Positions 25,705-39,546 of a DNA stretch of 64,000 nt are shown in pieces. The position numbers were made by a program, and so were the translations under genes. The notes beneath the pieces were generated by a model. The model saw only the letters and a program-made list of their open reading frames with translations. It had not been told where the DNA came from and ran no database searches. How positions within the stretch are numbered: the stretch's first letter is position 1; each line of letters starts with the position of its first letter. This DNA comes from Trypanosoma brucei (taxonomy: Eukaryota), in NCBI GenBank assembly GCA_000002445.1, contig CH464491.1, positions 1,632,001 through 1,696,000 on the forward strand, given 5' to 3'.

Positions 25705-25875
25705 GGTGGTTAAACGGAATAAGTTGCTTTTGTTAATCTTGAAAAATATCTGCATTTATTTCACTAATAGTTGGGAAGAAATCTTCCTGTTACCATAATA
25801 CTCTGTTGCTCACTCTACTTTAAACAGCTATTTTTCATGTGCGCACTGGAATGGGAAGGAGCGAGCCGCAATGCT

Positions 25876-26175
25876 ACTGCGGAAAGTCGCACGGCAACCG
25901 GGGCGCAACGGATTTTCCGCCATTGGTAAACTACGGCATGTGACGGACGATAACGGAAAACATGGCACGTGGGAAGACGGTTTTTTGGCCATGGGAAGCT
26001 GCAGCAGTGCTTCCCGACCAAGGAGCAAGAAAGTCGCACGGCAACCGGGGCGCAACGGATTTTCCGCCATTGGTAAACTACGGCATGTGACGGACGATAA
26101 CGGAAAACATGGCACGTGGGAAGACGGTTTTTTGGCCATGGGAAGCTGCAGCAGTGCTTCCCGACCAAGGAGCAA
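25876..26175. repeat. Tandem duplication, 147-bp unit x2, GC-rich, open on both strands
   Basis: The motif aagtcgcacggcaaccggggcgcaacgg recurs at 25884 and 26031 (period 147). The whole unit is repeated near-identically. Each unit contains the hairpin gggaagc-tgcagcagt-gcttccc. Track ORFs on both strands show the 49-aa repeat KVARQPGRNGFSAIGKLRHVTDDNGKHGTWEDGFLAMGSCSSASRPRSK. Confidence 0.85.
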
Positions 26176-26671
26176 AGATCTTTCGGAACCTAACGTGGGA
26201 TGAGGAAGTTTACGGTACGATTGATGACGAAAGAAAGATGCCGCGGCGATCGTTGAGGCATTGCGACCTTCGCATTGAAAATGCCAACAAATCGTCGAGC
26301 GAAGGGATTCACTTTGCCGCGTTTTTCGTCAAAACCGGTCATGCCCGGACTGCTAAAATTCTCGTTTTTTTACGGAGTGGGCCTACTGGGGTGCCCATTC
26401 GCCTTCTATCGTTCTTCACGGATGCCCATACCCTTCGGAAAAGCCTTGTCGTCCTCTCCCCCACGTGGACCGATGAAGAGCGTCCTTAAATCCATTGTCA
26501 GGATTATCCGGAATCTGCTTCTCTGCCCGAAGCCTTTTTACTGGTGCGATGCCTATTAGCACCTCCAACAACGGTATCTGCGGCATCTTCTGGTTTGGTT
26601 GCCATTTAAGATTTCACAGTTTCAGCCGCCGTGGATATTCACCGATTTTCAAGTGGACTTACACGCGCATT

Positions 26672-26687
26672 GGGGGGGGGGGGAGGG
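26672..26687 (+). repeat. G12AGGG homopolymer tract (G-quadruplex-capable)
   Basis: tggggggggggggagggcgcgg read directly in the sequence. Confidence 0.8.
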
Positions 26688-28855
26688 CGCGGCCTTTCAA
26701 TCTAGTCTTATACCCTTCGGTTTAAACGGCGTGCATAAGAAACGTACCGGTCACTTGTGGAGTGGCAATCTTCTTTCCAGGATGTTCTCTGCCCCAACTT
26801 CTTCCTGCGTCGCATATATTGGAGCGGGTATAGTAATTGCCGGAAAGATTCGCCGAGTTCGATTTCTGAAGTTTTGTTTTAATTTTCTACCGTGTCCGCT
26901 TGCTTATGCTGCGTGCGTTTGATACGAACACCTCGTCCCCAGCATTTTTCTGGGCACTGAAGGGTCTTTGCAGGCAGTTTTGTTACCAGAAATGTTGCAT
27001 CATCCATATTTCTCCTTTATTTTTACTGAATTTTTTACAGGGTATTGATTCCTGATGCGTGGGGAAAAGCCTAGAACGCGAGCGTGTCAGTACCACGTTC
27101 CGCACTTTTCCTCAATTGGGAGTTTTGGCGTGGCTCCAAGAAGGGTTTAGTGCTTCCGCCCTCTCCTCCTCCCCCTTGCACTCTTTTCCTTCCCCCTCCT
27201 GTGACTTCTACCCCCAACTCCGCAGGGAGCGAAAGGGGCCGTCTCGTTCTCATTGTCAACCCTTCGCGCTACTAATGGCCGTCGACCCTTATAACACTTA
27301 GTGTCTGTTCCCCCATGCCCTTGAGCACACAACCTAATGCCCACGCACAGAACATACCCGTTTCGGAATTCATCGCCCCAGTGCACCAATCCAACCTTTG
27401 CCTCCCGGAACAAAGCGCTTGTGAAACGTTAGCCCCCGCTTTTTCGCTAAAAAGTTTTCGACCGTGCCTTCAGCTCTCAAATTCGTTGTAAGCATCTACG
27501 TGGCTACCAGCGGTGGAGCGCGTCCATGAATTGTCTTCGCGTTCCATCGCATTTCCAGCACAAGTTATAGATCACTGCTGCGAGTGCCCGTGTTGTTGCC
27601 AAGTTTCTACAATCCCTCCTTATGTTTGTTTGTTTTTTTTTCCAACCTGAAGCGATGCCGGTGGGGAATTCACCAAACACTAGTTTGAACTCTACCATGG
27701 TAAATGGTATGGACCTAAAACCTCCCCGCTGCTCCAAGCAATAACGCCCGTGATGCCATTCGTATCGTATTCTCTCGGTTTCCCTTCCATGTATCCCAGA
27801 GCTCAATCGCCCGCTGATTCTTTGATAACCTCAGACCATTAGTCACTACAATGGGCGTGCTCAACAACCTCAGAACAAGCAGCGAGTTTATCAGGTTCCG
27901 GTCCCTTGATTTATTTTTTGAATTCTGTTTCTAGCCCTTACCTCCTCCATTGTTCTGCGGCCACCTCCTTCAGCACTTGTTTTAGCTTTGCAAATTTTTG
28001 TTCCCTTTTTCCTGCAATTCGCACAATTTTCAGCATCTGCTTCCATATCCGGCATTTCTTTAATCCAGAAAGATGGCACCAACTCATTTCCTTCGCCAGT
28101 TGCTTTCATTGATTCCATGCGGATTGAGGAGGAAATTGCGTTGCCCATCCCATCCGTCATCCTACGGTAATATTAAAAACCGTGGATGAACTTCCTAGAC
28201 GCATATTTGCCGCCGAGTTGCCCAATCGGTGCTATTCCATGCGAATAGTAGACGTCTATGACGGCACAAACGGACTCAATAGCTGTCCCTACGGATGCTT
28301 GCTTCGAGCTTTATTTAACGGTCTACTAACGATGCAAACCATTCCCTCCGGTGGAGAAGATATGTAAAAACATTAGAGCCAGCAGGAGGCCTGTGGTTTC
28401 CCTCAAGTCCGCTTGGAACGGGGGCATTGAACGGTTAGCAGTGGTAAAAGAAAAAAGGAACAATTAAAGCGATTGAAACATCGTACTCGATAACGAACAC
28501 TACCTGGTGCCTTTGAATGATCCCCTCTAAGTATCTTCTTCATGTTTGGATATCTCATGAAGAAAGAGAGAAGGGGGAAAAGAAGGGGGCTTGTTACCTT
28601 CCACTGTAACAATAACCCCCATTCTATTCTCCGCCGCCTTTAGAGAGTCCGAAAATACACGCGTACAGAAACAATCATTTTGGAGAAGATGCGCAAACTT
28701 CTCCCGACTTCCCTCCTCTTCTCACCACGACCCCAACGCCCCCTCAATGGAACAAAAACCACCAACTCCTCATCATGTTTGCACAACCGCTAAGCGGGAG
28801 CGGTTAAGGGGCACCGCGCCGGCATGACTTCTTCCTTCAAACAATATGCAGTTCA

Positions 28856-28878
28856 GTGTGTGTGTGTGTGTGTGTGTG
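28856..28878. repeat. (GT)11 microsatellite
   Basis: gtgtgtgtgtgtgtgtgtgtgtg read directly. Confidence 0.9.
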
Positions 28879-29540
28879 GAAGAATATAGCAGAAAGGGAT
28901 CAAAACAATAACAACATAATGGAGGCAGAAACAATGAAAGCGGTATACGCGATCTGTTGGTGGCTGGAATGTTTTAAAAGTTAAGAGGCCTGCGGGGGAA
29001 CCACATATATAACGACCCCTGCGGAGGCACACGCTAAGATTACAATCTCATAAGTGGCGGAAGCATAGTTCTCACATTGCCACTGTATGAATCCGCTGTC
29101 AATGTTAAAAAGAGAAGGAGAGGGCGCGCAAATAGCGCCAGGCACCATACTGCAGTCCCATGTGAAGGAGACGAAACGTATGGAAACGAAAAAAAAAGGG
29201 AGCGTGTTAATGGAAGAGGGGTTAAATTACAAAATTTAAAAAAATAACTTCGTCACGGAAGCACCTGTCACGTTACCGTATGTGACATGGAAAGAGGGCA
29301 TTTAGCCAGCACCTACAACAGGGGTTGGCGCCAGCATTCGCTATCAAAATAATAATAATAATTAAACAGTAAGGTTATTAAGTGTATGCCAAAGACACAC
29401 CATAAACACATGGAAGGGAATGGAATGTAAACGAATAAAGAGTAGGGATACAGTGGCGAACATCAACATTAACATCCAGATGAGTGATTCTGTATCAGCA
29501 CCACGTCTGCCTGCAAGGGTGTGGGGGATGAGATTTAAAA

Positions 29541-29560
29541 ATATATATATATATATATAT
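29541..29560. repeat. (AT)10 microsatellite
   Basis: atatatatatatatatatat about 200 bp beyond the GRESAG4 stop codon. Confidence 0.9.
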
Positions 29561-29759
29561 TTGTCGGGCGCAAAGGCACCGGCAAGGCACCCTAGTAAGC
29601 CGTTGCTGGTTAAATAACGCTAAGAAATAAGTCGCTTAGTGCGAGGTAGTAGAAGGAAGTGCATCTGATTTAAAACACAAAACAATAACTTTAAAAAAAA
29701 ACAAAAACGATTCTCGCATAAGGTGTGGGTTGGTAAGGGGGAAAATAGCTACGCAACTC

Positions 29760-32700
29760 TCACACCGACACAAAGGGCTGGTCAGCAGAGAAGCACTCAT
29801 CAAGTTGCGAGCAACGGTTGGAGATGTAAATCACTGATGTGCTGTGAGTGCTGGTAGTGAGTTCATTATTACCATTCGCAGAGTGATCCACAACCCGTCC
29901 CACCTTTGCGGCAATACGGCGTATCACATCCCCGCAATAAACATCGTCCCAGACTGGATTCGCCTGGTTGGGAAGAGGGACACGCCATCGCTCACAATAC
30001 GGCCGCAGGAGTTTCTCGCGCTGGGGGACCTTAAATGTACTGAGGAGTGCCTCCAGGGAGCTCGCAATCATTTGGGCGGACTCGCTCAAATCAGCCAGTG
30101 ATGAACTGTGGTCGCTTGTGGTTATGGTTGTCCCGTCGCCGCCCTCGTCAAAATAGTATTCACGGTCAAGCCGCAGTGCTGCGAAGGTGCGACCAGGCAC
30201 GGCGTTCAACTGGTAAAGTTCCACTGGTTGTGGTGCACCACGCAGTGCAACAAGCCCCAGGGGGACGACGTCGATTTCCTTTCGTTCATCTTCGCTCAGA
30301 GCAAGGTATGTGGCCCGAGTTAGCAGCACCTGACCGCCGTTCGCGACGCTCTCCGTACGTGCGGCCATGTTAGTTGTACCCCCATAGTAGTCGTAGCCCT
30401 TCGTCACTTCATCATAGCGGATGTCACACAACCCGGTATGAACACCTACACGTACACGCAAGCCGTTCCAGAGACTCCCGTACACGTCAGGAGCAAGACG
30501 GGCAGTGGGTGGAGTGTACTCTTTATCGTCGCAAGCTCGCTGCTCTTCAAAGGCATGATAGAAGCGGTCGAACACCTCCGTTTCCCATTTGTGACTCAGG
30601 AATTGCCGCTGGAGTTCACTCACGAGCTGCACCGCAGCAAATGGGCTCCGGCAAGCAATCATGAACGAGTCACCAATCGTTTTCACTTCGTAGCAGTTGT
30701 ACTCGACCATCAGGGACCGGATAATTTTATGGTGTGACGCCACGGCGTCAGGCATAAGCTCGGGGAAACCGGCCCACTGTGCTGTGCTGCTCTCAATGTC
30801 CGTGAACACGAGTGTAACGGGCTCCGTCGATTCCCTCGGCGCAAGCTCGTTGTCGCGGGCATTGCGCAGGGTGAAGTACAGTACCAGAGCAAGCGCAGCG
30901 AGCAGCAATGCGACGAGGGTAGAGCCAATAGCAATCGCAATCACCTGCCCTTGTGTAAGTTTGTTTTCGTCGACGTAAACTAGCGTTGGTGTCACACCAT
31001 TTTGTAGCGGCGGTGTGGCGGGATCCAGCAATCGAGTCAGGGACCACACGGAGATGTTTGTTCCCCCGTAATTGGAAAGGCAATTGCTGGCAAGAGCGAC
31101 GCCATTCACAATGCAATCAACATCGCTAAAGGGCCCGTACCGCATGTCATCGACGTTGATGGTGGACTCGGAGTAGAAATAGTCAGCCAGCAATTTCGCG
31201 TCAACCTTCTCCATATGGTCAAGGACGGACACCATCAGCCGCGCCGTGGAAAAGCCCCGCAACGACATGGGAGTTCTCATCGCCGGCTCAGGCACGGCCT
31301 TGTGGTAAGCTTGAACAGTCAGTGACGACGAGTTCTCCTCCGCCCAGTGGGGCTGGTTGGTGGCGAATACGAAGCGGTTGGTGGTCGTAGGCGGGGTTCT
31401 GCTAAATGCTGCTCTCAACTCCTCGTACATTAGCGTTACATCAGGATAAATGGCGAAGATCCGTAGACCTCTTTTAGCATCAAGGTGCTCAGCCAGGTCA
31501 TACACCTCTAACGCCGTAAACCCAATAACAAACACGTCCCCGCTAGAGGGGAGATGGGGTTTCAACGAGCCCTCATTATCCACAATTACCTTCGATTGCA
31601 TGAAAATACCGTACGTCCGCAGTGTGGCTATCAACACCTCCAATATCATATCCGCATCGTGGGTTCGAATCACTACACGCACGTTTCCGCCAGGGTGCTC
31701 CGAGATGTACTGAACCAGAACATAGAGTTCCTGCGCAAGCGTAGGTGACACGTATATCACGTTTCGGTTAAACCTGTTCATACGAGGGTTGCTGGTTATG
31801 GGGTCAATGAACGCCAAATTCTCCGTGGCCAAGATTTCCTTATTCACGACGCCAAACAGGGCCGGGATCACCTTCACATCACGCATTTGCTCCAGTTGCT
31901 CGACAGCCTCATCGCCCGTTGCCTCTAAGGGATGCAAGAAGAACCTGTCACGCTCTCCAATCCGGCCGTTGCCCAGCAAGGCGGAGGCGCCGTTAAGATA
32001 CCTCAGACTCGCGCGGTAAACAACCACATTGTCCATCAACTGCACAATAAGGCCGTTCAATGGTGCGCGCAGAACAACACCAGCGCTGGAGCACTCTGAT
32101 GCGCCCCACGTCAGAAACCCCGTGACCACGGGCTGCAACCGAAAACCATCCACGACCTCCTTCATGTACACCACGCTCCCACCCTGGTTGCACTGACACA
32201 CAGCACCTTGCCATGCAGCAAACGCATCGCAATCACCTCCAAAGTCGCCAACAACGAGATCATCAATAAGGTAGCGCCGTTGTTCGTACAGTGAGTCTAT
32301 GAATGCTGTGCTGTTAGTTAACGACAATGTGCTCCGGAGAGCTCGTGATACGACTTCCCCGGTGATCCATCCAGTGAGCATCAACTCCCCGCTGGTATCA
32401 TCTTCAAGGAGTTCCTGTCGCATCGCAAACCTGTGCCCCTCATCACTAGATGAGAGGTACTCGTCCACCTCTTCCCGGAACCGTTTCACAACCGCAAATC
32501 GTGCGTGGTTCGAGAGGGGGTTAACACCGCTTATAATCAGTTGTCCGGGTATCAGTTCACGACCACTCTCCTCTAAGGCATCCCGCCAAGTATTAATCAG
32601 GAAAACCTGAGCGCTGGATGGCGCAAGTACGTACACACCTGTGGTGCGATCGTCGGTAGCCATTCTCCTCACAAACTCTCTGGTGACGGGATTGGGTGAG

Positions 32701-33494
32701 CCAAGTAAAAGCACGGCTAATGGGCGGGTATTCACAAACTGCTCCCACTCGGCATCAAACGCGGTGCTGACAACCTCCAGTCCACCGGTACCCTCGAGGG
32801 AGAAAGTTCCGCTCAACTCGTACCCCATTCCCGACAATATCTTTAAGGTGAACGCATGCGACTCCTTACCGAAATATGAGTCACTCAGATACATAAACCC
32901 AAGGCGGGAAAGTCGCAGGGTGACGGCAAAGTATCGAATCAGGGTCAGCAGTTCAGCGTCTGGCTCAGCGGTAGTGAAGTACAGGTGGCGATTCCACCCA
33001 CGAGCCTCATCCGAGTAAGTTAGGGGTGAGAAAGCAACTACATCGTTGTTCTTAAGGTGTTCGAGGGACCAGAGCACATTGTCGTTGCCCAGCGGACCCA
33101 CTGCTATCAAAAGCTTTCCTTTACTTGCCTCCACGGCACTCTCAAAAAGCTCCTCAATAGGCTGGTCATGGGACGAGGGTCGAATGACAGAGACTTTCAC
33201 CCCGTTGGGGATGTCTCCACGACGGGCGGCCAGCGACGCCTCGAAACCGGTGCTCAGGGCGTCAACACTCACCTTGGGGAATTTAGGGTTGTACATAAGG
33301 TAGAGAATGTTGACTGTCACCTCCGCGCCGGCAGCCACACGCACCCCAACGGACAGCAGCGCGAGGAGCGCCACCGCCATGGTGAAGGGGCGCGGTAAGT
33401 TGGACGCAACCAACGGCGGGGCCCGGACGACACGCGAGGCAGGACGGCAATTCAATACCGCCCCGCACCCACCACACAAACGGTAATCGTTCAT
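29760..33494 (-). CDS. GRESAG4: Receptor-type adenylate cyclase (GRESAG4 / ESAG4-like)
   Basis: 1244-aa ATG-start ORF. N-terminal signal peptide (MAVALLALLSVGVRVAAGA), large extracellular periplasmic-binding-protein-like region, single TM (VIAIAIGSTLVALLLAALALVLYFTL), then class III cyclase motifs LVFTDIESSTAQWA, YEVKTIGDSFMIA, GVHTGLCDIRYDEVTKGYDYYGGTTNMAARTES. Architecture is that of trypanosome receptor adenylate cyclases. Confidence 0.9.
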   Translation of the reverse strand: MNDYRLCGGCGAVLNCRPASRVVRAPPLVASNLPRPFTMAVALLALLSVGVRVAAGAEVTVNILYLMYNPKFPKVSVDALSTGFEASLAARRGDIPNGVKVSVIRPSSHDQPIEELFESAVEASKGKLLIAVGPLGNDNVLWSLEHLKNNDVVAFSPLTYSDEARGWNRHLYFTTAEPDAELLTLIRYFAVTLRLSRLGFMYLSDSYFGKESHAFTLKILSGMGYELSGTFSLEGTGGLEVVSTAFDAEWEQFVNTRPLAVLLLGSPNPVTREFVRRMATDDRTTGVYVLAPSSAQVFLINTWRDALEESGRELIPGQLIISGVNPLSNHARFAVVKRFREEVDEYLSSSDEGHRFAMRQELLEDDTSGELMLTGWITGEVVSRALRSTLSLTNSTAFIDSLYEQRRYLIDDLVVGDFGGDCDAFAAWQGAVCQCNQGGSVVYMKEVVDGFRLQPVVTGFLTWGASECSSAGVVLRAPLNGLIVQLMDNVVVYRASLRYLNGASALLGNGRIGERDRFFLHPLEATGDEAVEQLEQMRDVKVIPALFGVVNKEILATENLAFIDPITSNPRMNRFNRNVIYVSPTLAQELYVLVQYISEHPGGNVRVVIRTHDADMILEVLIATLRTYGIFMQSKVIVDNEGSLKPHLPSSGDVFVIGFTALEVYDLAEHLDAKRGLRIFAIYPDVTLMYEELRAAFSRTPPTTTNRFVFATNQPHWAEENSSSLTVQAYHKAVPEPAMRTPMSLRGFSTARLMVSVLDHMEKVDAKLLADYFYSESTINVDDMRYGPFSDVDCIVNGVALASNCLSNYGGTNISVWSLTRLLDPATPPLQNGVTPTLVYVDENKLTQGQVIAIAIGSTLVALLLAALALVLYFTLRNARDNELAPRESTEPVTLVFTDIESSTAQWAGFPELMPDAVASHHKIIRSLMVEYNCYEVKTIGDSFMIACRSPFAAVQLVSELQRQFLSHKWETEVFDRFYHAFEEQRACDDKEYTPPTARLAPDVYGSLWNGLRVRVGVHTGLCDIRYDEVTKGYDYYGGTTNMAARTESVANGGQVLLTRATYLALSEDERKEIDVVPLGLVALRGAPQPVELYQLNAVPGRTFAALRLDREYYFDEGGDGTTITTSDHSSSLADLSESAQMIASSLEALLSTFKVPQREKLLRPYCERWRVPLPNQANPVWDDVYCGDVIRRIAAKVGRVVDHSANGNNELTTSTHSTSVIYISNRCSQLDECFSADQPFVSV

Positions 33495-33525
33495 ATTTTA
33501 AGTTTTACTAGGTTAATCGCAATGT

Positions 33526-33560
33526 CTTCGGAAGGAGGAGGTAGGAAAGAAGGTTGCATA
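33526..33560 (-). promoter_or_regulatory. Polypyrimidine tract (minus strand) with downstream AG: candidate trans-splicing signal for GRESAG4
   Basis: Plus-strand polypurine ggaaggaggaggtaggaaagaagg lies 35-65 nt upstream (in the minus sense) of the ATG at 33494; AG dinucleotides lie between the tract and the ATG. Confidence 0.45.
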
Positions 33561-35170
33561 GGTGGTAGAGTGGTGGACAACAACTAAAGCACTGGTGCAA
33601 TAGAAGACGGCCGAAGCAAGTCTCGAACGATCATCTCGCCGGTAGCCCACGGCACTGCGCAGAATGGCACTAACAAGCCGCCCCCTGCGCGCAACAACAA
33701 GCACGGAAAGGTGTCTTCACGCACTGTGGTGTCCAGCAACTTACGTATGGAGTGACACAAAGGGCATGGTGCCAAAGTTTGGACGGAGTGCATCTAACAA
33801 GTCAAAATGACGGGTGATAACGGCTTTGGTTTATCTTCCTTGGGGTTAGTGTCATCGCCTTCGTTCTCGTTTCGTCGGCAACCGCTCACAGGGCAAGGCA
33901 AATAAGACTGTAGATGCTGTAACTATCTAATACGCACATCGGTGTAAAACCTGAATTCTGCGTAGGAACCTCGCATGTGAGGGTGTTTAGGTTATCGATC
34001 ACAAAGAACCGTTACGTCGTTCCATGTTTTTCACACATCACAACGAGTGGGCAGCAGAAAGGGTTGCATTTTCACTGATGAATATGAGTTATGTCGACAA
34101 CAGTAATGATATCGCAGCGACTCTGCGTGAAGAGTTCATCCTCATCAACATATTTCTTCTATCAATGTATGAATTCAATGCAATACAAGCACAATTAAGT
34201 CGACGAGTTAACGCCGCGGCATCCGTGGAGGTCGAAAAGGTGCTTCACAGGTCTTGCACAGCACCAAAGAGCGGAGACTTGTTATCGTCAGGACGCAAAA
34301 CAGTCAGCACACCGCAGCGTACACCGCCGGCAAGCGTGACTCCAGGGGAGCGCATGGATGGAGCTTTAAAATCTCCGGATGATAACATCTTAAGTGTGAT
34401 GCAAAAACTAAACAGTCGACGCCAACGAAATTCACGAGTAATGATTAGACGGAAAGGCCTTATGCACCCTCTGCATTCAATCTACCCACGTCAAACTTCC
34501 ATAACTCACAAGTCGTTTGTATCTTCTACAATTCAATAACGGCATGATCCAGCATAAACCGTCAAATCCCTGTCAAAGCAGGTCGCAACTCGCCTTGCAC
34601 AATCTTCACTCAGCTGGGGTAACAAACAAAAACTGACAAAGGGGGAAAGAAACACGTCAACAGAAGCGTTATTAAGGGCACCCCAACATGAAAAAGGGAG
34701 CGAATCCGCCACCCTCAAAGCCCCCTTTCCCACCTCATATGAACGGAGAACGAAAAAAAAATTGAATAAAAAAATGAGGGGAGTTCAGTACAACAACAAA
34801 AGTAAATAAATGGCAAAAGATGACAGCATCCTTACGGTGTCTTCCCGTCCCCGTTTTGCTTCCTACGTTTATTACGTATACGTTATTTTAGTCATACCCT
34901 TTCCCATTTTGCGCAGTAACTTATGCTTCCCTACCCGTCCACTAGCACAGTCCCTTCTCTACGTTATTTTTCACACAGCTAACACACCGCCGATGCGCCT
35001 GAAGAGGCACAAAAGAGTGCGCATAGACTAGGGTCGAAGGATTAAAAATTTCCGTCCTCTGTGGACACAATAAACATCTCGGAAGATGCTCCAAAAGAAA
35101 TAAACAAATACAAAAAAATTAAGAAAAAAAAACAAGTGGTACTGTCTACTACGAACTCCTTGGTTCAACT

Positions 35171-35494
35171 TCAAACGGTTGCCTGCTCCTTCTTTGCACC
35201 ATCATCAGCAGCCGTTTCGTTAGCGCCGGGATTTTCATTGTTCTCAGGTCCGTCAGCGCGCGTCATTTCTTCCGTTTCCTCATCAGATGCACCAGGGATG
35301 TGAAGCTCATCAGGACGGCGGTGTGCAACATACAATGCAATGCCAATGCCTACCACTGTAATACCGAGGCAAACCCATACGAGTGGGAATTCCTTTTCAG
35401 TGGCACCACCCGGAGCGGGATCTGGGGCGGCGGCACGCACCACCTCCATAACGAAGGCGATGGCAAAGACAAGTGCGACGGATTTCGAGAACAT
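35171..35494 (-). CDS. Small single-pass membrane protein (108 aa), copy 1 of tandem pair
   Basis: First ATG at 35494 (MFSKSVALVFAIAFVMEVVRAAAP...): hydrophobic N-terminal signal, TM segment FPLVWVCLGITVVGIGIALYVA, stop-transfer HRR, acidic cytoplasmic tail (DEETEEMTRADGPENNENPGANETAADDGAKKEQATV). The longer track ORF begins in repeat-junction sequence and is probably not the real start. Confidence 0.45.
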   Translation of the reverse strand: MFSKSVALVFAIAFVMEVVRAAAPDPAPGGATEKEFPLVWVCLGITVVGIGIALYVAHRRPDELHIPGASDEETEEMTRADGPENNENPGANETAADDGAKKEQATV

Positions 35495-36099
35495 AACGAA
35501 CTTTAAAATAGCTTGAGAGAAAAACTGCGCTAGAAGTATCCTGTCACAATAGAAGAATAGTGAAAATGAAAGAGAAAGAATCACGTCAACAGAAGCGTTA
35601 TTAAGGGCACCCCAACATGAAAAAGGGAGCGAATCCGCCACCCTCAAAGCCCCCTTTCCCACCTCATATGAACGGAGAACGAAAAAAAAATTGAATAAAA
35701 AAATGAGGGGAGTTCAGTACAACAACAAAAGTAAATAAATGGCAAAAGATGACAGCATCCTTACGGTGTCTTCCCGTCCCCGTTTTGCTTCCTGCGTTTA
35801 TTACGTATACGTTATTTTAGTCATACCCTTTCCCATTTTGCGCAGTAACTTATGCTTCCCTACCCGTCCACTAGCACAGTCCCTTCTCTACGTTATTTTT
35901 CACACAGCTAACACACCGCCGATGCGCCTGAAGAGGCACAAAAGAGTGCGCATAGACTAGGGTCGAAGGATTAAAAATTTCCGTCCTCTGTGGACACAAT
36001 AAACATCTCGGAAGATGCTCCAAAAGAAATAAACAAATACAAAAAAATTAAGAAAAAAAAACAAGTGGTACTGTCTACTACGAACTCCTTGGTTCAACT

Positions 36100-36423
36100 T
36101 CAAACGGTTGCCTGCTCCTTCTTTGCACCATCATCAGCAGCCGTTTCGTTGGCGCCGGGATTTTCATTGTTCTCAGGTCCGTCAGCGCGCGTCATTTCTT
36201 CCGTTTCCTCATCAGATGCACCAGGGATGTGAAGCTCATCAGGACGGCGGTGTGCAACATACAATGCAATGCCAATGCCTACCACTGTAATACCGAGGCA
36301 AACCCATACGAGTGGGAATTCCTTTTCAGTGGCACCACCCGGAGCGGGATCTGGGGCGGCGGCACGCACCACCTCCATAACGAAGGCGATGGCAAAGACA
36401 AGTGCGACGGATTTCGAGAACAT
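36100..36423 (-). CDS. Small single-pass membrane protein (108 aa), copy 2 of tandem pair
   Basis: Identical predicted protein to 35171..35494, exactly 929 bp away; one silent nucleotide difference. Confidence 0.45.
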   Translation of the reverse strand: MFSKSVALVFAIAFVMEVVRAAAPDPAPGGATEKEFPLVWVCLGITVVGIGIALYVAHRRPDELHIPGASDEETEEMTRADGPENNENPGANETAADDGAKKEQATV

Positions 36424-37401
36424 AACGAACTTTAAAATAGCTTGAGAGAAAAACTGCGCTAGAAGTATCCTGTCACAATAGAAGAATAGTGAAAATGAAA
36501 GAGTTTTGAAATAGAAACAACGCAACATCGTCCACGGGGTTCATAAATATAAATAAATTATTTTATCCAGTTTGAAAAGGGAAAAGGGGCTGAGGAAAAT
36601 TTCTTTGTTATTGCCCATCCCACATATCTTGCCTGTGGCCCCGGAAAGTGACGATGCACTTTTTCGTCTGGACCATCATTGACTTCCGATATCTTTTGTA
36701 GCTTAATTTCCGTATATTCGATCAACTAGAAAGTAGGGATGTGGAACGGAAATCAGTTACCTAACTGCGACCGCCGCAGTCCTTGAGCAGCGAAACAATC
36801 GGCAGAGGAAACAGGCATCCGTCTACGAAACGAATTTACATTTACAGAAATACGAACACGTAGTGGAAGCACGTGTGCGAAGGAAGGACAAAATGAAGCA
36901 TCAGACCCATATAAGCCCAATTACCACATTACGTTCCTTCCTTCTAACCCCCACACACAAAAGAAAAAAAAATCGTTCAGCTCACCTATCCTGCCTCACG
37001 GTGTGAGGACATGAAAGTAAGCGGAGACAACAAAGAAATAAACTCAAATGAAGTGATGAATTGGAAAAGTAGGTACTGAACGAAACATTATCCTCGGTCG
37101 AAATATAGGGAATCCCTGGTGATTTTACCCACACGCAAAAAAAAAACAAAACAAAACAAAAGAACACCGTCGGTGTATTCATATATGATGTCGTGATGAG
37201 TGTAATACTCACCGAAGGCACGATAGAACGGCCAACAAAAATGAAAATAACAGTGTCAAGAAAAATATATGTTTAAATATATATATATATCAGTAAAAAT
37301 GAGCTACGCTGTGAAGACCATGGCACAACATGGTGCCATAAAGTCGGGTACATGCAACGCACACTTGTAACCCAATTGAAGAACACGATATTCTCAAACT
37401 C

Positions 37402-39546
37402 CTACTGATAAGATACTTGAACCATTAAAAAAGAGCCATGTATAATAGATCCTTTGAGGTCTCGAAGGGGGACCTGGCGAATTCCTTTTTTTAGGGCACG
37501 TAATGGCACAACATATTCACCCAGAAGGTTATTGCTTTTGGTATCCTCGTCATACACCTGCATGACAAGGGTGGACAGTTCCCACTCGTACACCTTCCAG
37601 CAGAACTCGTTGTTTAGGCGCTCACCCCGCCAGACAGGATGAAAGCCATTATTGTGAATGGGAGATGTGTTTCGTTGGCTTTTCTCCATGCCGGGGCCCT
37701 CAATCAAGGCGGCTACGCGAGAATCCACAATACTGCTACCGGATGCATTTTTCCGCCTGGGAAGACAGAAAGCTGATATAATTTCTATTGTGAGCAACCG
37801 TGACTGCCGTTTTGGCCCCCTTGCACGTGCAATGTCCACAGCAGTCGGTTTGAGAAGGTAGCCGCAGTTACCATTGTCGCTGAAGAACCCCCTATTTAGC
37901 CTAAGCTGGTATGACTTGTAATTCTGCCAATTGAGTGCAACTAGTTGGCACCCACAATTCCAAAACGTTTGAGGATGAAAGTTACTGCTACCGATGCGAG
38001 TTCCTGTGGGGTATATGCGACTCAAACACCGATTATTGATGGCAACAAACTCCTCCTGGTTAGAAGAGGCAATTTTCCCCGCTTTCCCTTCAGTAAAAGA
38101 GCTGCAGTGATATGGTTGACGCATTTCAAGATAACTTAGATCCTCAACACCCTTATAACCAATGGATTCGATTGAAATAAGACGAGATAGTTTCTCTGAA
38201 ACCTTTGAAACCTTCTTTTTCTTTTCAGCACCCCTTGAATTCGTTTTTCCACCACCGCGACAACGCCGAGCAGTTTCAGGTGGTACGAAATTTTCCACCA
38301 CACCATCGGCTTCCTCATCCTCATCGTCGTCATCATCAACCTGTACCCCATCGGTAGGTGTAGTAGCCCGTTTGCTCTTTAGCAGAATTTTTCCCTTTAG
38401 CGCTTCCGGCGAGAATGTGAAAGAAGTCTGTTCACCAGCACCCCAAGGACTGCAGAATAGCATATCTCCGAGCGTTTCACACAAAATTTCCGCCATTCGA
38501 TCCTGTTGGCGGAGGCTAGTGTGAACCTCAAGCGACAAAATGACAGGGTATATTGAATTAACGAAAGCATACTTCTTGATCGTGCTAATACAGTCCCGGA
38601 ACCAAAGCTTGGAAGTCCTTGTGTAACCATGATAAACTACAGGCTGACCCTTGCGACCATCCCAACAATCAAGTTCAACGCAGCGGCAGCCATCCAGTAG
38701 AACCCTCTTGTACATATCCGTGGAAGATTTGCTCAAGAGTTGATCACCCGTAAGGTAGGTATTGTGCGAGGAATTGATGAAATACTCACATATCGGGCGA
38801 GTCATATCGTGGTAAACACTAGACACCTTTCTGTTGTTCACAATGGAGTTAAAGCGCCTGTCGCTGAGAAATGATAAGAATGCGTCCAAATGTACAGGAT
38901 GCTCTTCGGTACAGCCAACAGCGTCTAGAAATACGTGCAGCTCCTCACCATCGGCACCCTCTCCTTGAGTTTCCTTCAGGAAGGTAACAAACTCAGCCTT
39001 TGTCATCACGTCCCGATCGGGACCCACAATATTTCGCATTGCATATGTCAGTTCATTAAGTCTTGTCAGAGACATAAATGTCCCCTGCATCAACTTGTAG
39101 TTTGCCCTCCCCCCTGTAGCTTCCAGCTCGTCAATCATCTTTTGTGAGAGCCTTTCAGGGAAGCTCAAACCCTTCAAGATTTTCCTCAATTCACGAACGC
39201 ATATGTCCCCGCTGTTGTCGTCGTCGTACTTTATCCATATCATCATGAACTTCGCGTGATTCACATCCCATTTTATGAGATTCAGCGGATTTGCAGCACA
39301 AAAGGAAGTAAACAACTCTGCCGCCCGTGGGTTTGCACTACTTGCGCATGCAAGGAACTCGACGGCATCCTCCCGGCTGCACTTCAAAAGGTCCGTGATG
39401 GCTCCCAGCAGAGAAGAAAAGAAGGGCTGAAGCTCGTGTGCCTCAACTGCCCCTGTCGAAAGATGCTCATCAACGAGGTTGCCGGTACGGTGGGAGTAAC
39501 ATGCGAGTTTCTCTTCTGAGAGCCCACGTGACGTACACCCTCCCAT
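37402..39546 (-). CDS. PLC: Phosphoinositide-specific phospholipase C (PI-PLC)
   Basis: 714-aa ATG-start ORF. X-box motifs [12 protein letters not shown] and VELDCWDG; Y-box SLEVHTS and [12 protein letters not shown]; acidic X-Y linker ([12 protein letters not shown]); C-terminal C2-like region. N-terminus MGGCTSRG fits the N-myristoylation (G2) plus palmitoylation (C4) consensus. Confidence 0.85.

What the first reader, a model, noticed from the sequence alone, without database searches (positions are those of the whole stretch)
34654..36503. Near-identical 929-bp tandem duplication, each copy encoding the same 108-aa single-pass membrane protein
Two complete 929-bp units differ at only about 2 positions, one of them a silent change inside the CDS. 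That implies very recent duplication or ongoing gene conversion, and copy number probably varies between isolates. The encoded protein has a signal-anchor, one TM helix and an acidic cytoplasmic tail with a tiny ectodomain. It sits between the receptor adenylate cyclase and PI-PLC genes. Tandem arrays in trypanosomes usually mark genes under dosage demand, since there is no transcriptional control.
Basis: seen in the sequence. Interest (0 to 1): 0.6.

Follow-up and report, generated by a model that had tools for sequence, protein, structure and literature searches.

The report
Tandem pair of small membrane-protein genes

Summary
Window 34645-35573 and 35574-36502 are two head-to-tail 929-bp units with 3 mismatches, one of them silent in the CDS. 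Each encodes the same protein of 107 aa, not 108.

The window is T. brucei TREU927 chromosome 11. The genes are the annotated Tb927.11.5950 and Tb927.11.5960, lying between GRESAG4 adenylate cyclase and PI-PLC.

The duplication is not recent. T. b. gambiense DAL972 and T. b. equiperdum IVM-t1 carry it with the same junction. Three sites are shared by both copies within a lineage but differ between lineages, which indicates concerted evolution. One assembly (T. equiperdum OVI) has a single copy.

The ORF is real. Published ribosome profiling shows heavy translation in both life stages with clean ribosome release at the stop codon. TrypTag lists Tb927.11.5950 under flagellar-pocket "ring".

The family is kinetoplastid-restricted. 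It has a variable signal peptide, a tiny ectodomain and a near-invariant TM helix plus RRPDELHLPG. No Pfam or PDB relative was found. The gene follows PI-PLC in T. vivax, T. melophagium (at least 5 tandem copies) and T. cruzi.

This is an ordinary, already catalogued tandem pair of an uncharacterised but interesting small protein.

The parts
34645..35573 (-). Repeat unit 1. It is the downstream unit in the direction of transcription and contains Tb927.11.5950.
   Evidence: Offset-929 self-identity with 3 mismatches. It is identical to the single unit of T. equiperdum OVI.
35574..36503 (-). Repeat unit 2, the upstream unit, containing Tb927.11.5960. The last base, 36503, is the 1-nt overlap.
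   Evidence: All three differences from unit 1 are private to this unit among seven Trypanozoon units.
35171..35494 (-). CDS copy 1, 107 aa plus stop. Identifiers: Tb927.11.5950, Tb11.02.3760, XP_828670.
   Evidence: Translation. Exact database match. Coordinates and ribosome footprints. TrypTag flagellar-pocket 'ring'.
36100..36423 (-). CDS copy 2, 107 aa plus stop. Identifiers: Tb927.11.5960, Tb11.02.3770. GenBank models it as 142 aa starting at the ATG at 36526-36528.
   Evidence: The TrypTag N-terminal tagging primer ends at 36424, so that gene model uses the 107-aa ATG. All homologues start at this Met.
36470..36503 (-). Proximal polypyrimidine tract (78% C/T) ending in AG at 36471-36470. 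It is the first 34 nt of the unit, and the upstream duplication breakpoint lies at its 5' edge.
   Evidence: Sequence. Its use as a splice acceptor is inferred.
35541..35585 (-). The same proximal polypyrimidine tract and AG (35542-35541) for copy 1. It spans the unit junction.
   Evidence: Sequence. RNA coverage over the annotated 168-nt 5'UTR is 4-25 times lower than over the CDS, which argues that most mRNAs are spliced nearer the ATG (headers).
35663..35715 (-). Distal polypyrimidine tract plus AG (35664-35663), the annotated spliced-leader acceptor of copy 1. The 5'UTR starts at 35662. An identical copy lies at 34734-34786.
   Evidence: 5'UTR length and gene location in the Vasquez 2014 table. 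AG checked.
34633..34655 (-). Polypyrimidine tract and AG (34634-34633) of the adenylate cyclase gene. The downstream duplication breakpoint (34645/34644) lies inside this tract.
   Evidence: The AC location 1661760-1666632 with a 1137-nt 5'UTR corresponds to window 34632. Sequence.
29760..33494 (-). Downstream neighbour: receptor-type adenylate cyclase GRESAG4 (Tb927.11.5940).
   Evidence: Pfam. Exact match.
37402..39546 (-). Upstream neighbour: PI-PLC (Tb927.11.5970). It is the conserved syntenic partner across Trypanosoma.
   Evidence: Pfam. Exact match. Synteny.

Best explanation
This is a two-copy head-to-tail duplication of one gene cassette in a polycistronic transcription unit of T. 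brucei chromosome 11.

The duplicated segment runs from the polypyrimidine tract in front of the small gene to the polypyrimidine tract in front of the next gene, the adenylate cyclase. Each copy therefore keeps a CDS, its downstream region and a proximal pyrimidine tract with AG.

The duplication arose once, before T. b. brucei, T. b. gambiense and T. b. equiperdum separated. Gene conversion or unequal crossing-over has since kept the copies alike. In TREU927 the last homogenisation was recent, leaving 3 differences, all private to the upstream copy.

Both copies encode the same 107-aa type I membrane protein. Its parts are a cleaved signal peptide of about 21 residues, an ectodomain of about 16 residues, one TM helix and a disordered acidic tail of about 47 residues. 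It is strongly translated in bloodstream and procyclic forms, and the tagged protein is listed at the flagellar pocket. The duplication most plausibly serves dosage.

The following is inferred with lower confidence, about 0.3. The near-invariant TM helix has Trp40, Cys42 and a small-residue face of Gly44, Thr46, Gly49 and Ala53. Together with the juxtamembrane RRPDELH(L/I)PG motif, this points to tight intramembrane packing with itself or with a conserved partner, in the manner of small single-pass accessory subunits. The Ser/Thr-containing acidic cluster may act in sorting through the pocket and endosomal system.
For: Structure of the repeat.

Identity of the locus: exact protein matches to TREU927 chromosome 11, and gene IDs and coordinates.

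Shared junction: BLAST of the unit gives full-length 1-930 hits, two per genome, in DAL972 and IVM-t1.

Concerted evolution:
- Sites 171, 317 and 545 are lineage-specific but shared by both paralogues.
- A GCT insertion marks orthology of DAL_up and IVM_up.
- Paralogue divergence is 0.32-0.75%, against 1-1.8% in the flanks between TREU927 and DAL972.

Translation (Vasquez 2014):
- Footprints are 875 RPKM in bloodstream forms and 1258 RPKM in procyclic forms.
- Translational efficiency is 2.9 and 4.8.
- CDS footprints number 11300 (Tb11.02.3760) and 11460 (Tb11.02.3770), against 9 and 7 downstream of the stop.
- Ribosome release scores are 166 and 244.

Localisation: TrypTag source data for the flagellar-pocket subcompartments list Tb927.11.5950 as 'ring'.

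Protein architecture: hydropathy. AlphaFold predicts helices 3-21 and 38-59 with the rest unstructured. In 18 homologues the N-terminal region varies, Ala is invariant at -1, and the core is invariant. Family-wide invariants are C42, R60 and P61.

Recurrent amplification at the same position: at least 5 copies in T. melophagium, a tandem pair in T. vivax, two adjacent genes in T. congolense, and an 8-copy read-through model, P0039.
Against: - Identical copies cannot be told apart by short reads or by tagging primers. Expression and localisation therefore apply to the pair, not to each gene.
- The TrypTag row with the tagged terminus and full annotation was not in the stored part of the table. 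Only the 'ring' listing was seen.
- The protein was not found in the supplements held for the bloodstream surface-labelled proteome.
- The conversion signal rests on three sites.
- Dosage benefit is an inference. T. cruzi manages with one copy at this position.
- No interaction partner is known. A single TM helix gives no homology handle.
Confidence: 0.8

Rival explanations
1. The duplication is very recent and specific to the TREU927 lineage. Near-identity then simply reflects youth.
For: There are only 3 differences in 929 bp. The closely related T. equiperdum OVI assembly has one unit, identical to the TREU927 downstream copy.
Against: DAL972 and IVM-t1 have two units with exactly the same boundaries. 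Independent events hitting the same two nucleotides are very unlikely. Their copies carry a copy-specific GCT indel shared between the two strains.
Confidence: 0.05
2. This is an assembly artefact. Either the two copies are a spurious duplication, or the true array is longer and was collapsed to two.
For: Near-identical repeats are prone to mis-assembly. One assembly shows a single copy. T. melophagium has at least 5 copies running to a contig end.
Against: Three independent assemblies of different strains give exactly two units, each with copy-specific differences. TREU927 chromosome 11 is a finished clone-based sequence; this last point is from general knowledge and was not tested here.
Confidence: 0.08
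3. The N-terminal hydrophobic segment is an uncleaved signal-anchor. The protein would then be a two-helix hairpin with both ends in the cytosol, closer to the reader's wording.
For: AlphaFold models residues 3-21 as a helix. No cleavage predictor or N-terminal sequencing was available.
Against: The N-terminal segment varies freely between species while the second helix is nearly invariant. Ala is invariant at the predicted -1 position, with a small or aliphatic residue at -3. The segment is about 20-23 residues long with a short polar start, as expected of a signal peptide. RR or KR after the second helix fits an N-out, C-in orientation.
Confidence: 0.12
4. The two copies are kept for differential regulation, not dosage. 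They share a CDS but have different upstream flanks, so their mRNAs may be processed differently by stage.
For: The upstream flank of copy 2 is unique sequence. Copy 1 sits behind the repeated 3' tail, which has its own annotated acceptor at 35662.
Against: Both copies share the proximal pyrimidine tract, the AG and the 80 nt before the ATG. RNA coverage suggests that the proximal site dominates. Footprint counts for the two genes are nearly equal, although multi-mapping makes that uninformative.
Confidence: 0.12

Closest known systems
Tandem gene arrays of trypanosomatids homogenised by concerted evolution (for example tubulin, histone H2B, hexose transporters and phosphoglycerate kinase)
   Same: The units are head-to-tail on the same strand inside one polycistron. 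Each unit carries a CDS plus processing signals. Paralogues within a genome are more alike than the flanks are between strains. This is usually read as a way to raise dosage without promoter control. Histone H2B and beta-tubulin paralogues appear as near-identical entries in the same ribosome-profiling table.
   Different: There are only two copies in T. brucei. The breakpoints fall in two different pyrimidine tracts, so the downstream copy has a chimeric upstream region. The product is an uncharacterised 107-aa membrane protein rather than a housekeeping protein.
Small single-pass accessory subunits of membrane transporters (FXYD proteins of the Na,K-ATPase, yeast Pmp1/Pmp2 of the H+-ATPase)
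   Same: The architecture matches: an optional signal peptide, an ectodomain of a few residues, a highly conserved TM helix with a small-residue face, basic residues at the cytosolic end and a short tail. This comparison comes from general knowledge and is a functional analogy only.
   Different: There is no FXYD motif and no detectable sequence relationship. No Pfam family reaches its threshold. No partner is known. Membership is not claimed.
PetG (cytochrome b6f subunit 5)
   Same: It was the best PDB profile hit. The TM end and following motif, LGITVVGviiaLYvaYRRPDeLhL, aligned with [24 protein letters not shown] at E = 0.025.
   Different: The E-value falls to 2.4 with the wider family profile. 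PetG has no signal peptide and is plastid-encoded, and kinetoplastids have no b6f complex. The resemblance is treated as chance between two short helices.
Type I membrane proteins of the T. brucei flagellar pocket and endosomal system (ISG65/75, CRAM)
   Same: They are type I proteins with a short cytoplasmic tail and a pocket or endosomal location (from general knowledge). TrypTag lists Tb927.11.5950 at the pocket.
   Different: Those proteins have large ectodomains and are restricted to African trypanosomes. This family has almost no ectodomain and occurs throughout the trypanosomatids.

Membership tests
Trypanosomatid tandem gene array under concerted evolution | Head-to-tail units on the same strand, each with a complete CDS | tested here: met
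   Two 929-bp units, each with an intact 324-nt CDS on the minus strand.
Trypanosomatid tandem gene array under concerted evolution | Each unit carries its own trans-splicing signals (pyrimidine tract plus AG) | tested here: met
   A proximal tract of 78% C/T plus AG lies within the first 34 nt of each unit. A distal tract plus AG matches the annotated acceptor at 35662. Actual usage of each site by each copy was not resolved.
Trypanosomatid tandem gene array under concerted evolution | Paralogues within a genome share derived states that differ between lineages, despite a shared duplication junction | tested here: met
   The junction is the same in three genomes. Sites 171, 317 and 545 follow lineage, not copy. 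Paralogue divergence is below the TREU927-DAL972 flank divergence.
Trypanosomatid tandem gene array under concerted evolution | Copy number varies between strains or species | tested here: inconclusive
   Within Trypanozoon there are 2, 2, 2 and 1 copies, and the single-copy OVI assembly may be collapsed. Between species: T. vivax has 2 diverged copies, T. congolense 2, T. melophagium at least 5 and T. cruzi 1 at this position.
Type I single-pass membrane protein with cleavable signal peptide | N-terminal hydrophobic segment followed by a small-x-small cleavage motif | tested here: met
   Residues 1-21 are hydrophobic. Ala21 is invariant in 18 homologues, with V, A or S at -3, while the rest of the segment varies.
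Type I single-pass membrane protein with cleavable signal peptide | Actual cleavage and N-out, C-in orientation | not testable with these tools
   This needs N-terminal mass spectrometry or protease protection. Only the positive-inside rule (HRR, YRR or YKR after the TM helix) supports the orientation.
FXYD / Pmp1-type regulatory subunits | Family signature (the FXYD motif for FXYD proteins) or a significant profile match | tested here: not met
   No Pfam family is above its cut-off for any of 30 members. The ectodomain motif is (E/D)FPLVW, not FXYD.
PetG (PF02529) | Significant profile match | tested here: not met
   PDB profile E = 0.025 with the close family and 2.4 with the wide family. 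The Pfam PetG model is matched by 2 of 30 members at best E = 0.027, and none of the 30 members reaches any Pfam family's gathering cut-off.
MASP and 'cardiolipin synthase N-terminal domain' (automatic UniRef names on T. cruzi and Angomonas members) | Match to the corresponding Pfam models | tested here: not met
   The names were seen. Pfam scans of these and related members return neither family.

The most novel reading that the evidence does not exclude
The protein may be an abundant, kinetoplastid-wide intramembrane partner (a 'beta subunit') of a conserved flagellar-pocket or plasma-membrane machine. It could be functionally tied to PI-PLC signalling.

Three observations allow this reading. 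The gene has stayed immediately downstream of PI-PLC in T. brucei, T. vivax, T. melophagium and T. cruzi. TrypTag places both gene products in the same 66-protein flagellar-pocket 'ring' class. The TM helix and juxtamembrane motif are almost invariant from Trypanosoma to Leishmania and Phytomonas.
Probability: 0.1. Interest if true: 0.6.

Novelty: already known. Interest (0 to 1): 0.27.

Why it matters
As a genome feature it is routine. Both genes are in the reference annotation, in orthogroup tables, and in genome-wide tagging and ribosome-profiling datasets.

Its value is as a worked example and a lead. It shows a duplication whose breakpoints sit in two trans-splicing pyrimidine tracts. It gives a small, clean case of concerted evolution datable against subspecies divergence.

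It also highlights an unstudied protein. The protein is heavily translated and restricted to kinetoplastids. Its membrane helix is almost invariant, it localises to the flagellar pocket, and it has been tandemly amplified repeatedly. No paper in the searchable library mentions it by any identifier tried.

Tried and rejected
- Tandem Repeats Finder found nothing because its longest period is 500. The repeat was established by self-offset comparison instead.
- I hypothesised that the adenylate cyclase uses the repeated distal acceptor at 34733, which would make copy 1 a hijacker of the cyclase's splice site. The published 5'UTR length places the cyclase acceptor at 34632, just outside the repeat, so I dropped this.
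- I first read '93' in the ribosome-release table as a mapped 3'UTR length. The table header shows it is only the distance to the next ATG, so no poly(A) site is claimed.
- The PetG resemblance did not survive a broader profile.
- Pfam scans of 35 family members gave only sub-threshold TM noise: TMEM190, SfLAP and several DUFs.
- Microhomology at the breakpoints is at most 1 nt. A shared TCTTTC hexamer does not line up with the junction.
- The gene IDs were absent from the stored supplements of the bloodstream surface proteome and of Jensen 2014 ribosome profiling. One surface-proteome paper (PMC4587323) is not held.
- Fold search was not run. The model is two isolated helices plus disorder, so any match would be meaningless.
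- No tRNA or Rfam family was found anywhere in the window.
Full report
**1. The observation**

A direct-repeat search finds one family with a start-to-start spacing of 929. A base-by-base comparison at that offset shows identity from 34645 to 35574 against 35574 to 36503. There are three mismatches: 34652/35581, 34865/35794 and 35222/36151. Matching is random immediately outside these limits.

So there are exactly two units, 34645-35573 and 35574-36502, sharing one extra base. BLAST of the flanks against the unit finds nothing beyond short low-complexity words, so there is no decayed third copy. Tandem Repeats Finder is silent only because its longest period is 500.

Each unit carries a minus-strand ORF, at 35171-35494 and 36100-36423. 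The two encode the same protein. The single CDS difference is a silent third-position change in codon 91.

**2. Where this is**

The 107-aa protein, the PI-PLC and the adenylate cyclase all match T. brucei brucei TREU927 chromosome 11 proteins exactly. Published tables give the coordinates. Tb11.02.3760 lies at Tb927_11_01_v4:1667171-1667662(-), so window coordinate equals chromosome coordinate minus 1,632,000.

| Gene | Current ID | Old ID |
|---|---|---|
| GRESAG4 cyclase | Tb927.11.5940 | Tb11.02.3740 |
| Copy 1 | Tb927.11.5950 | Tb11.02.3760 |
| Copy 2 | Tb927.11.5960 | Tb11.02.3770 |
| PI-PLC | Tb927.11.5970 | Tb11.02.3780 |

Both copies are annotated 'hypothetical protein, conserved'. 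They are grouped as paralogues in a published orthogroup table. The feature is therefore already catalogued.

**3. Age of the duplication and concerted evolution**

I fetched the locus from three other genomes:
- T. b. gambiense DAL972 (L002) has two copies.
- T. b. equiperdum IVM-t1 (L003) has two copies.
- T. equiperdum OVI (L001) has one copy.

The TREU927 unit aligns full-length, positions 1-930, twice in DAL972 and twice in IVM-t1. The junction is therefore the same and the duplication predates their separation.

An alignment of the seven units has 15 variable columns:
- At unit sites 171, 317 and 545, both TREU927 copies and OVI share one base, and both copies of DAL972 and IVM-t1 share another. 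This is the signature of homogenisation after lineage separation.
- A GCT insertion occurs only in the upstream copies of DAL972 and IVM-t1, which shows those two copies are orthologous.
- All three TREU927 differences are private to its upstream copy.

Paralogues differ by 0.32% in TREU927, 0.75% in DAL972 and 0.65% in IVM-t1. The unique flanks differ by 1.0-1.8% between TREU927 and DAL972.

The single OVI unit is identical to the TREU927 downstream copy. Whether that reflects a real one-copy allele or a collapsed assembly cannot be decided here.

**4. Anatomy of the unit**

Read in the direction of transcription (minus strand), the unit has three parts:
- 34 nt of pyrimidine-rich sequence ending in AG, followed by 46 nt up to the ATG.
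- The 324-nt CDS.
- 525 nt of downstream sequence. This contains a second long pyrimidine tract ending in AG at 35664-35663, with an identical copy at 34735-34734.

A published table gives copy 1 a 167-nt 5'UTR, so its annotated spliced-leader acceptor is exactly that distal AG. RNA coverage over that 5'UTR is 4-fold lower than over the CDS in bloodstream forms and 25-fold lower in procyclic forms. I infer that most mRNAs are spliced at the proximal AG that both copies share.

The cyclase has a 1137-nt 5'UTR, which puts its acceptor at 34634-34633. That is 13 nt beyond the repeat boundary. Both breakpoints therefore lie in pyrimidine tracts just upstream of splice acceptors. The duplicated segment is one 'tract-to-tract' gene cassette. 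Microhomology at the junction is at most 1 nt.

GenBank models copy 2 as 142 aa, starting at an ATG at 36528 outside the repeat. The extra 35 residues are the translated pyrimidine tract, and no homologue has them. TrypTag's tagging primers use the 107-aa ATG.

**5. Is the ORF real?**

Yes. In Vasquez et al. 2014 (PMC3973304), Tb11.02.3760 has these values (headers):

| Stage | mRNA (RPKM) | Footprints (RPKM) | Translational efficiency |
|---|---|---|---|
| Bloodstream | 303 | 875 | 2.9 |
| Procyclic | 264 | 1258 | 4.8 |

The ribosome-release table gives 11300 footprint reads in the CDS against 9 downstream, for a score of 166. For Tb11.02.3770 the figures are 11460 against 7, for a score of 244 (headers). 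Per nucleotide this exceeds 14-3-3-I and is about half of ribosomal protein L24 in the same table. Reads cannot be assigned between identical copies, so these figures describe the pair.

TrypTag (PMC9981465) lists Tb927.11.5950 under 'ring' in the source data sheet 'Figure5I'. That sheet has eight categories, matching the eight flagellar-pocket subdomains of Fig. 5i. PI-PLC (Tb927.11.5970) is in the same class. For Tb927.11.5960 the table records 'not attempted' in one tagging field and 'tagging attempted', with N-terminal tagging primers and no localisation, in the other. The arms used for tagging are identical for both genes.

The protein was not found in the stored supplements of a bloodstream surface-labelled proteome.

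**6. The protein and its family**

Hydropathy shows two hydrophobic segments, at residues 1-21 and 36-58. AlphaFold with a 30-sequence alignment gives helices 3-21 and 38-59, and no other helix or strand (pLDDT 50-70 over most of the remainder).

A word-indexed search found homologues of 76-98 aa in T. cruzi, T. rangeli, T. melophagium, Phytomonas, Leishmania, Porcisia, Novymonas and Angomonas. An exhaustive profile search of 1.84 billion representatives found only 28 proteins. All are small and share this architecture. They include T. vivax, T. congolense and Strigomonas members and several unnamed assemblies.

Among 18 close homologues:
- The N-terminal segment varies freely but ends in an invariant Ala.
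- The ectodomain is 3-16 residues.
- The stretch EFPLVWVCLGITVVG..ALYVAY(R/K)RPDELH(L/I)PG is almost invariant.
- Most members end in (D/E)-x-(V/I/L).

Across 30 diverse members, C42, R60 and P61 are invariant. F36, P37, L38, W40, G44, T46 and G49 are at least 90% conserved.

I read this as a cleaved signal peptide, a minimal ectodomain, a TM helix under strong packing constraint, a basic stop-transfer with a conserved cytosolic motif, and an acidic Ser/Thr-rich tail.

No Pfam model reaches threshold for any member. The only PDB profile hit, PetG, drops from E = 0.025 to 2.4 with the broader profile. Automatic UniRef names on some members (MASP, cardiolipin synthase N-terminal domain) are unsupported.

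**7. Synteny and recurrent amplification**

| Species | Arrangement after PI-PLC |
|---|---|
| T. vivax | SH3 protein, PI-PLC, a 98-aa member, then a diverged 110-aa paralogue with no DNA similarity to it |
| T. melophagium | At least five copies (period about 1610 bp) to the contig end, in two internally homogeneous blocks (99.6% and 100%) that are 89.5% alike |
| T. cruzi | One member after PI-PLC, and a second at an unrelated locus |
| T. congolense | Two adjacent genes |

One EukProt gene model of 1817 aa is a read-through of eight tandem copies. The Leishmania locus examined has neither PI-PLC nor a second copy within 10 kb.

Linkage to PI-PLC is thus conserved across Trypanosoma. Tandem amplification at this spot is recurrent, which fits a dosage explanation.

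**8. Verdict**

The finding is accurate and its interpretation largely right, but it describes an ordinary and already annotated tandem gene pair.

The added results are these:
- The duplication is ancient relative to the T. brucei subspecies and is maintained by concerted evolution.
- Its breakpoints lie in two trans-splicing pyrimidine tracts.
- The product is heavily translated and localises to the flagellar pocket.
- The protein belongs to an uncharacterised, kinetoplastid-restricted family with a strikingly conserved membrane helix.

The molecular function remains inferred only. I favour an intramembrane accessory or sorting role, at roughly 0.3 confidence.

Noticed in passing
window 36424-36528 (-): GenBank (EAN79559/XP_828671) and the T. 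b. gambiense record model copy 2 as 142-143 aa from an upstream ATG. The extension is the translated pyrimidine tract and is absent from all homologues. TrypTag primers use the 107-aa start.
   Followed up: yes
window 25705-29759: A convergent strand-switch region. Large ORFs are on the + strand up to 25704 and on the - strand from 29760 onward. ARAGORN and Rfam find no tRNA or known RNA family here or anywhere else in the window.
   Followed up: partly
window 33495-34632 (-): The adenylate cyclase has a 1137-nt 5'UTR with 15 uORFs. Its translational efficiency is very low (0.06 in bloodstream forms, 0.09 in procyclic forms) in published ribosome profiling, in sharp contrast to its small upstream neighbour (2.9 and 4.8).
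   Followed up: partly
window 34024-34539 (+): A 171-aa ORF lies antisense within the cyclase 5'UTR. It has no Pfam match and is probably spurious.
   Followed up: partly
L008 8001-16279 (T. melophagium): At least five tandem copies follow PI-PLC, in two homogenised sub-blocks with different tail sequences (TVMVSTESEEVSGKN versus TEMVYNENEEAHGGN). The array runs to the contig end, so the true number is unknown.
   Followed up: partly
L009 8001-10101 (T. vivax): The tandem pair after PI-PLC has diverged strongly. The 110-aa second member has a long ectodomain with N-glycosylation sequons and an altered core (VPFMWVCLGLTLFG). The two show no DNA similarity, so there is no conversion in this species.
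   Followed up: partly
P0039 (EukProt, unnamed organism): An 1817-aa 'protein' is a gene-model read-through of eight tandem copies of a family member with the variant motif YRRPMEPY. This looks like a second subfamily, together with P0045 and P0054.
   Followed up: no
window 37402-39546 (-) and 35171-35494 (-): TrypTag puts PI-PLC (Tb927.11.5970) and Tb927.11.5950 in the same 66-member flagellar-pocket 'ring' class, and the two genes are adjacent across Trypanosoma. This may be coincidence or a functional link.
   Followed up: partly
L001 versus window 33494-37404: T. equiperdum OVI is identical to TREU927 in the repeat unit and the 1.15-kb downstream flank (0 substitutions). It differs by 1.1% in the 0.9-kb upstream flank. 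This suggests a haplotype recombination breakpoint at or near the repeat, or a mosaic consensus assembly.
   Followed up: no
P0041, P0065-P0067: UniRef labels the T. cruzi members 'Mucin-associated surface protein (MASP)' and an Angomonas member 'Cardiolipin synthase N-terminal domain-containing protein'. Pfam scans support neither label.
   Followed up: yes
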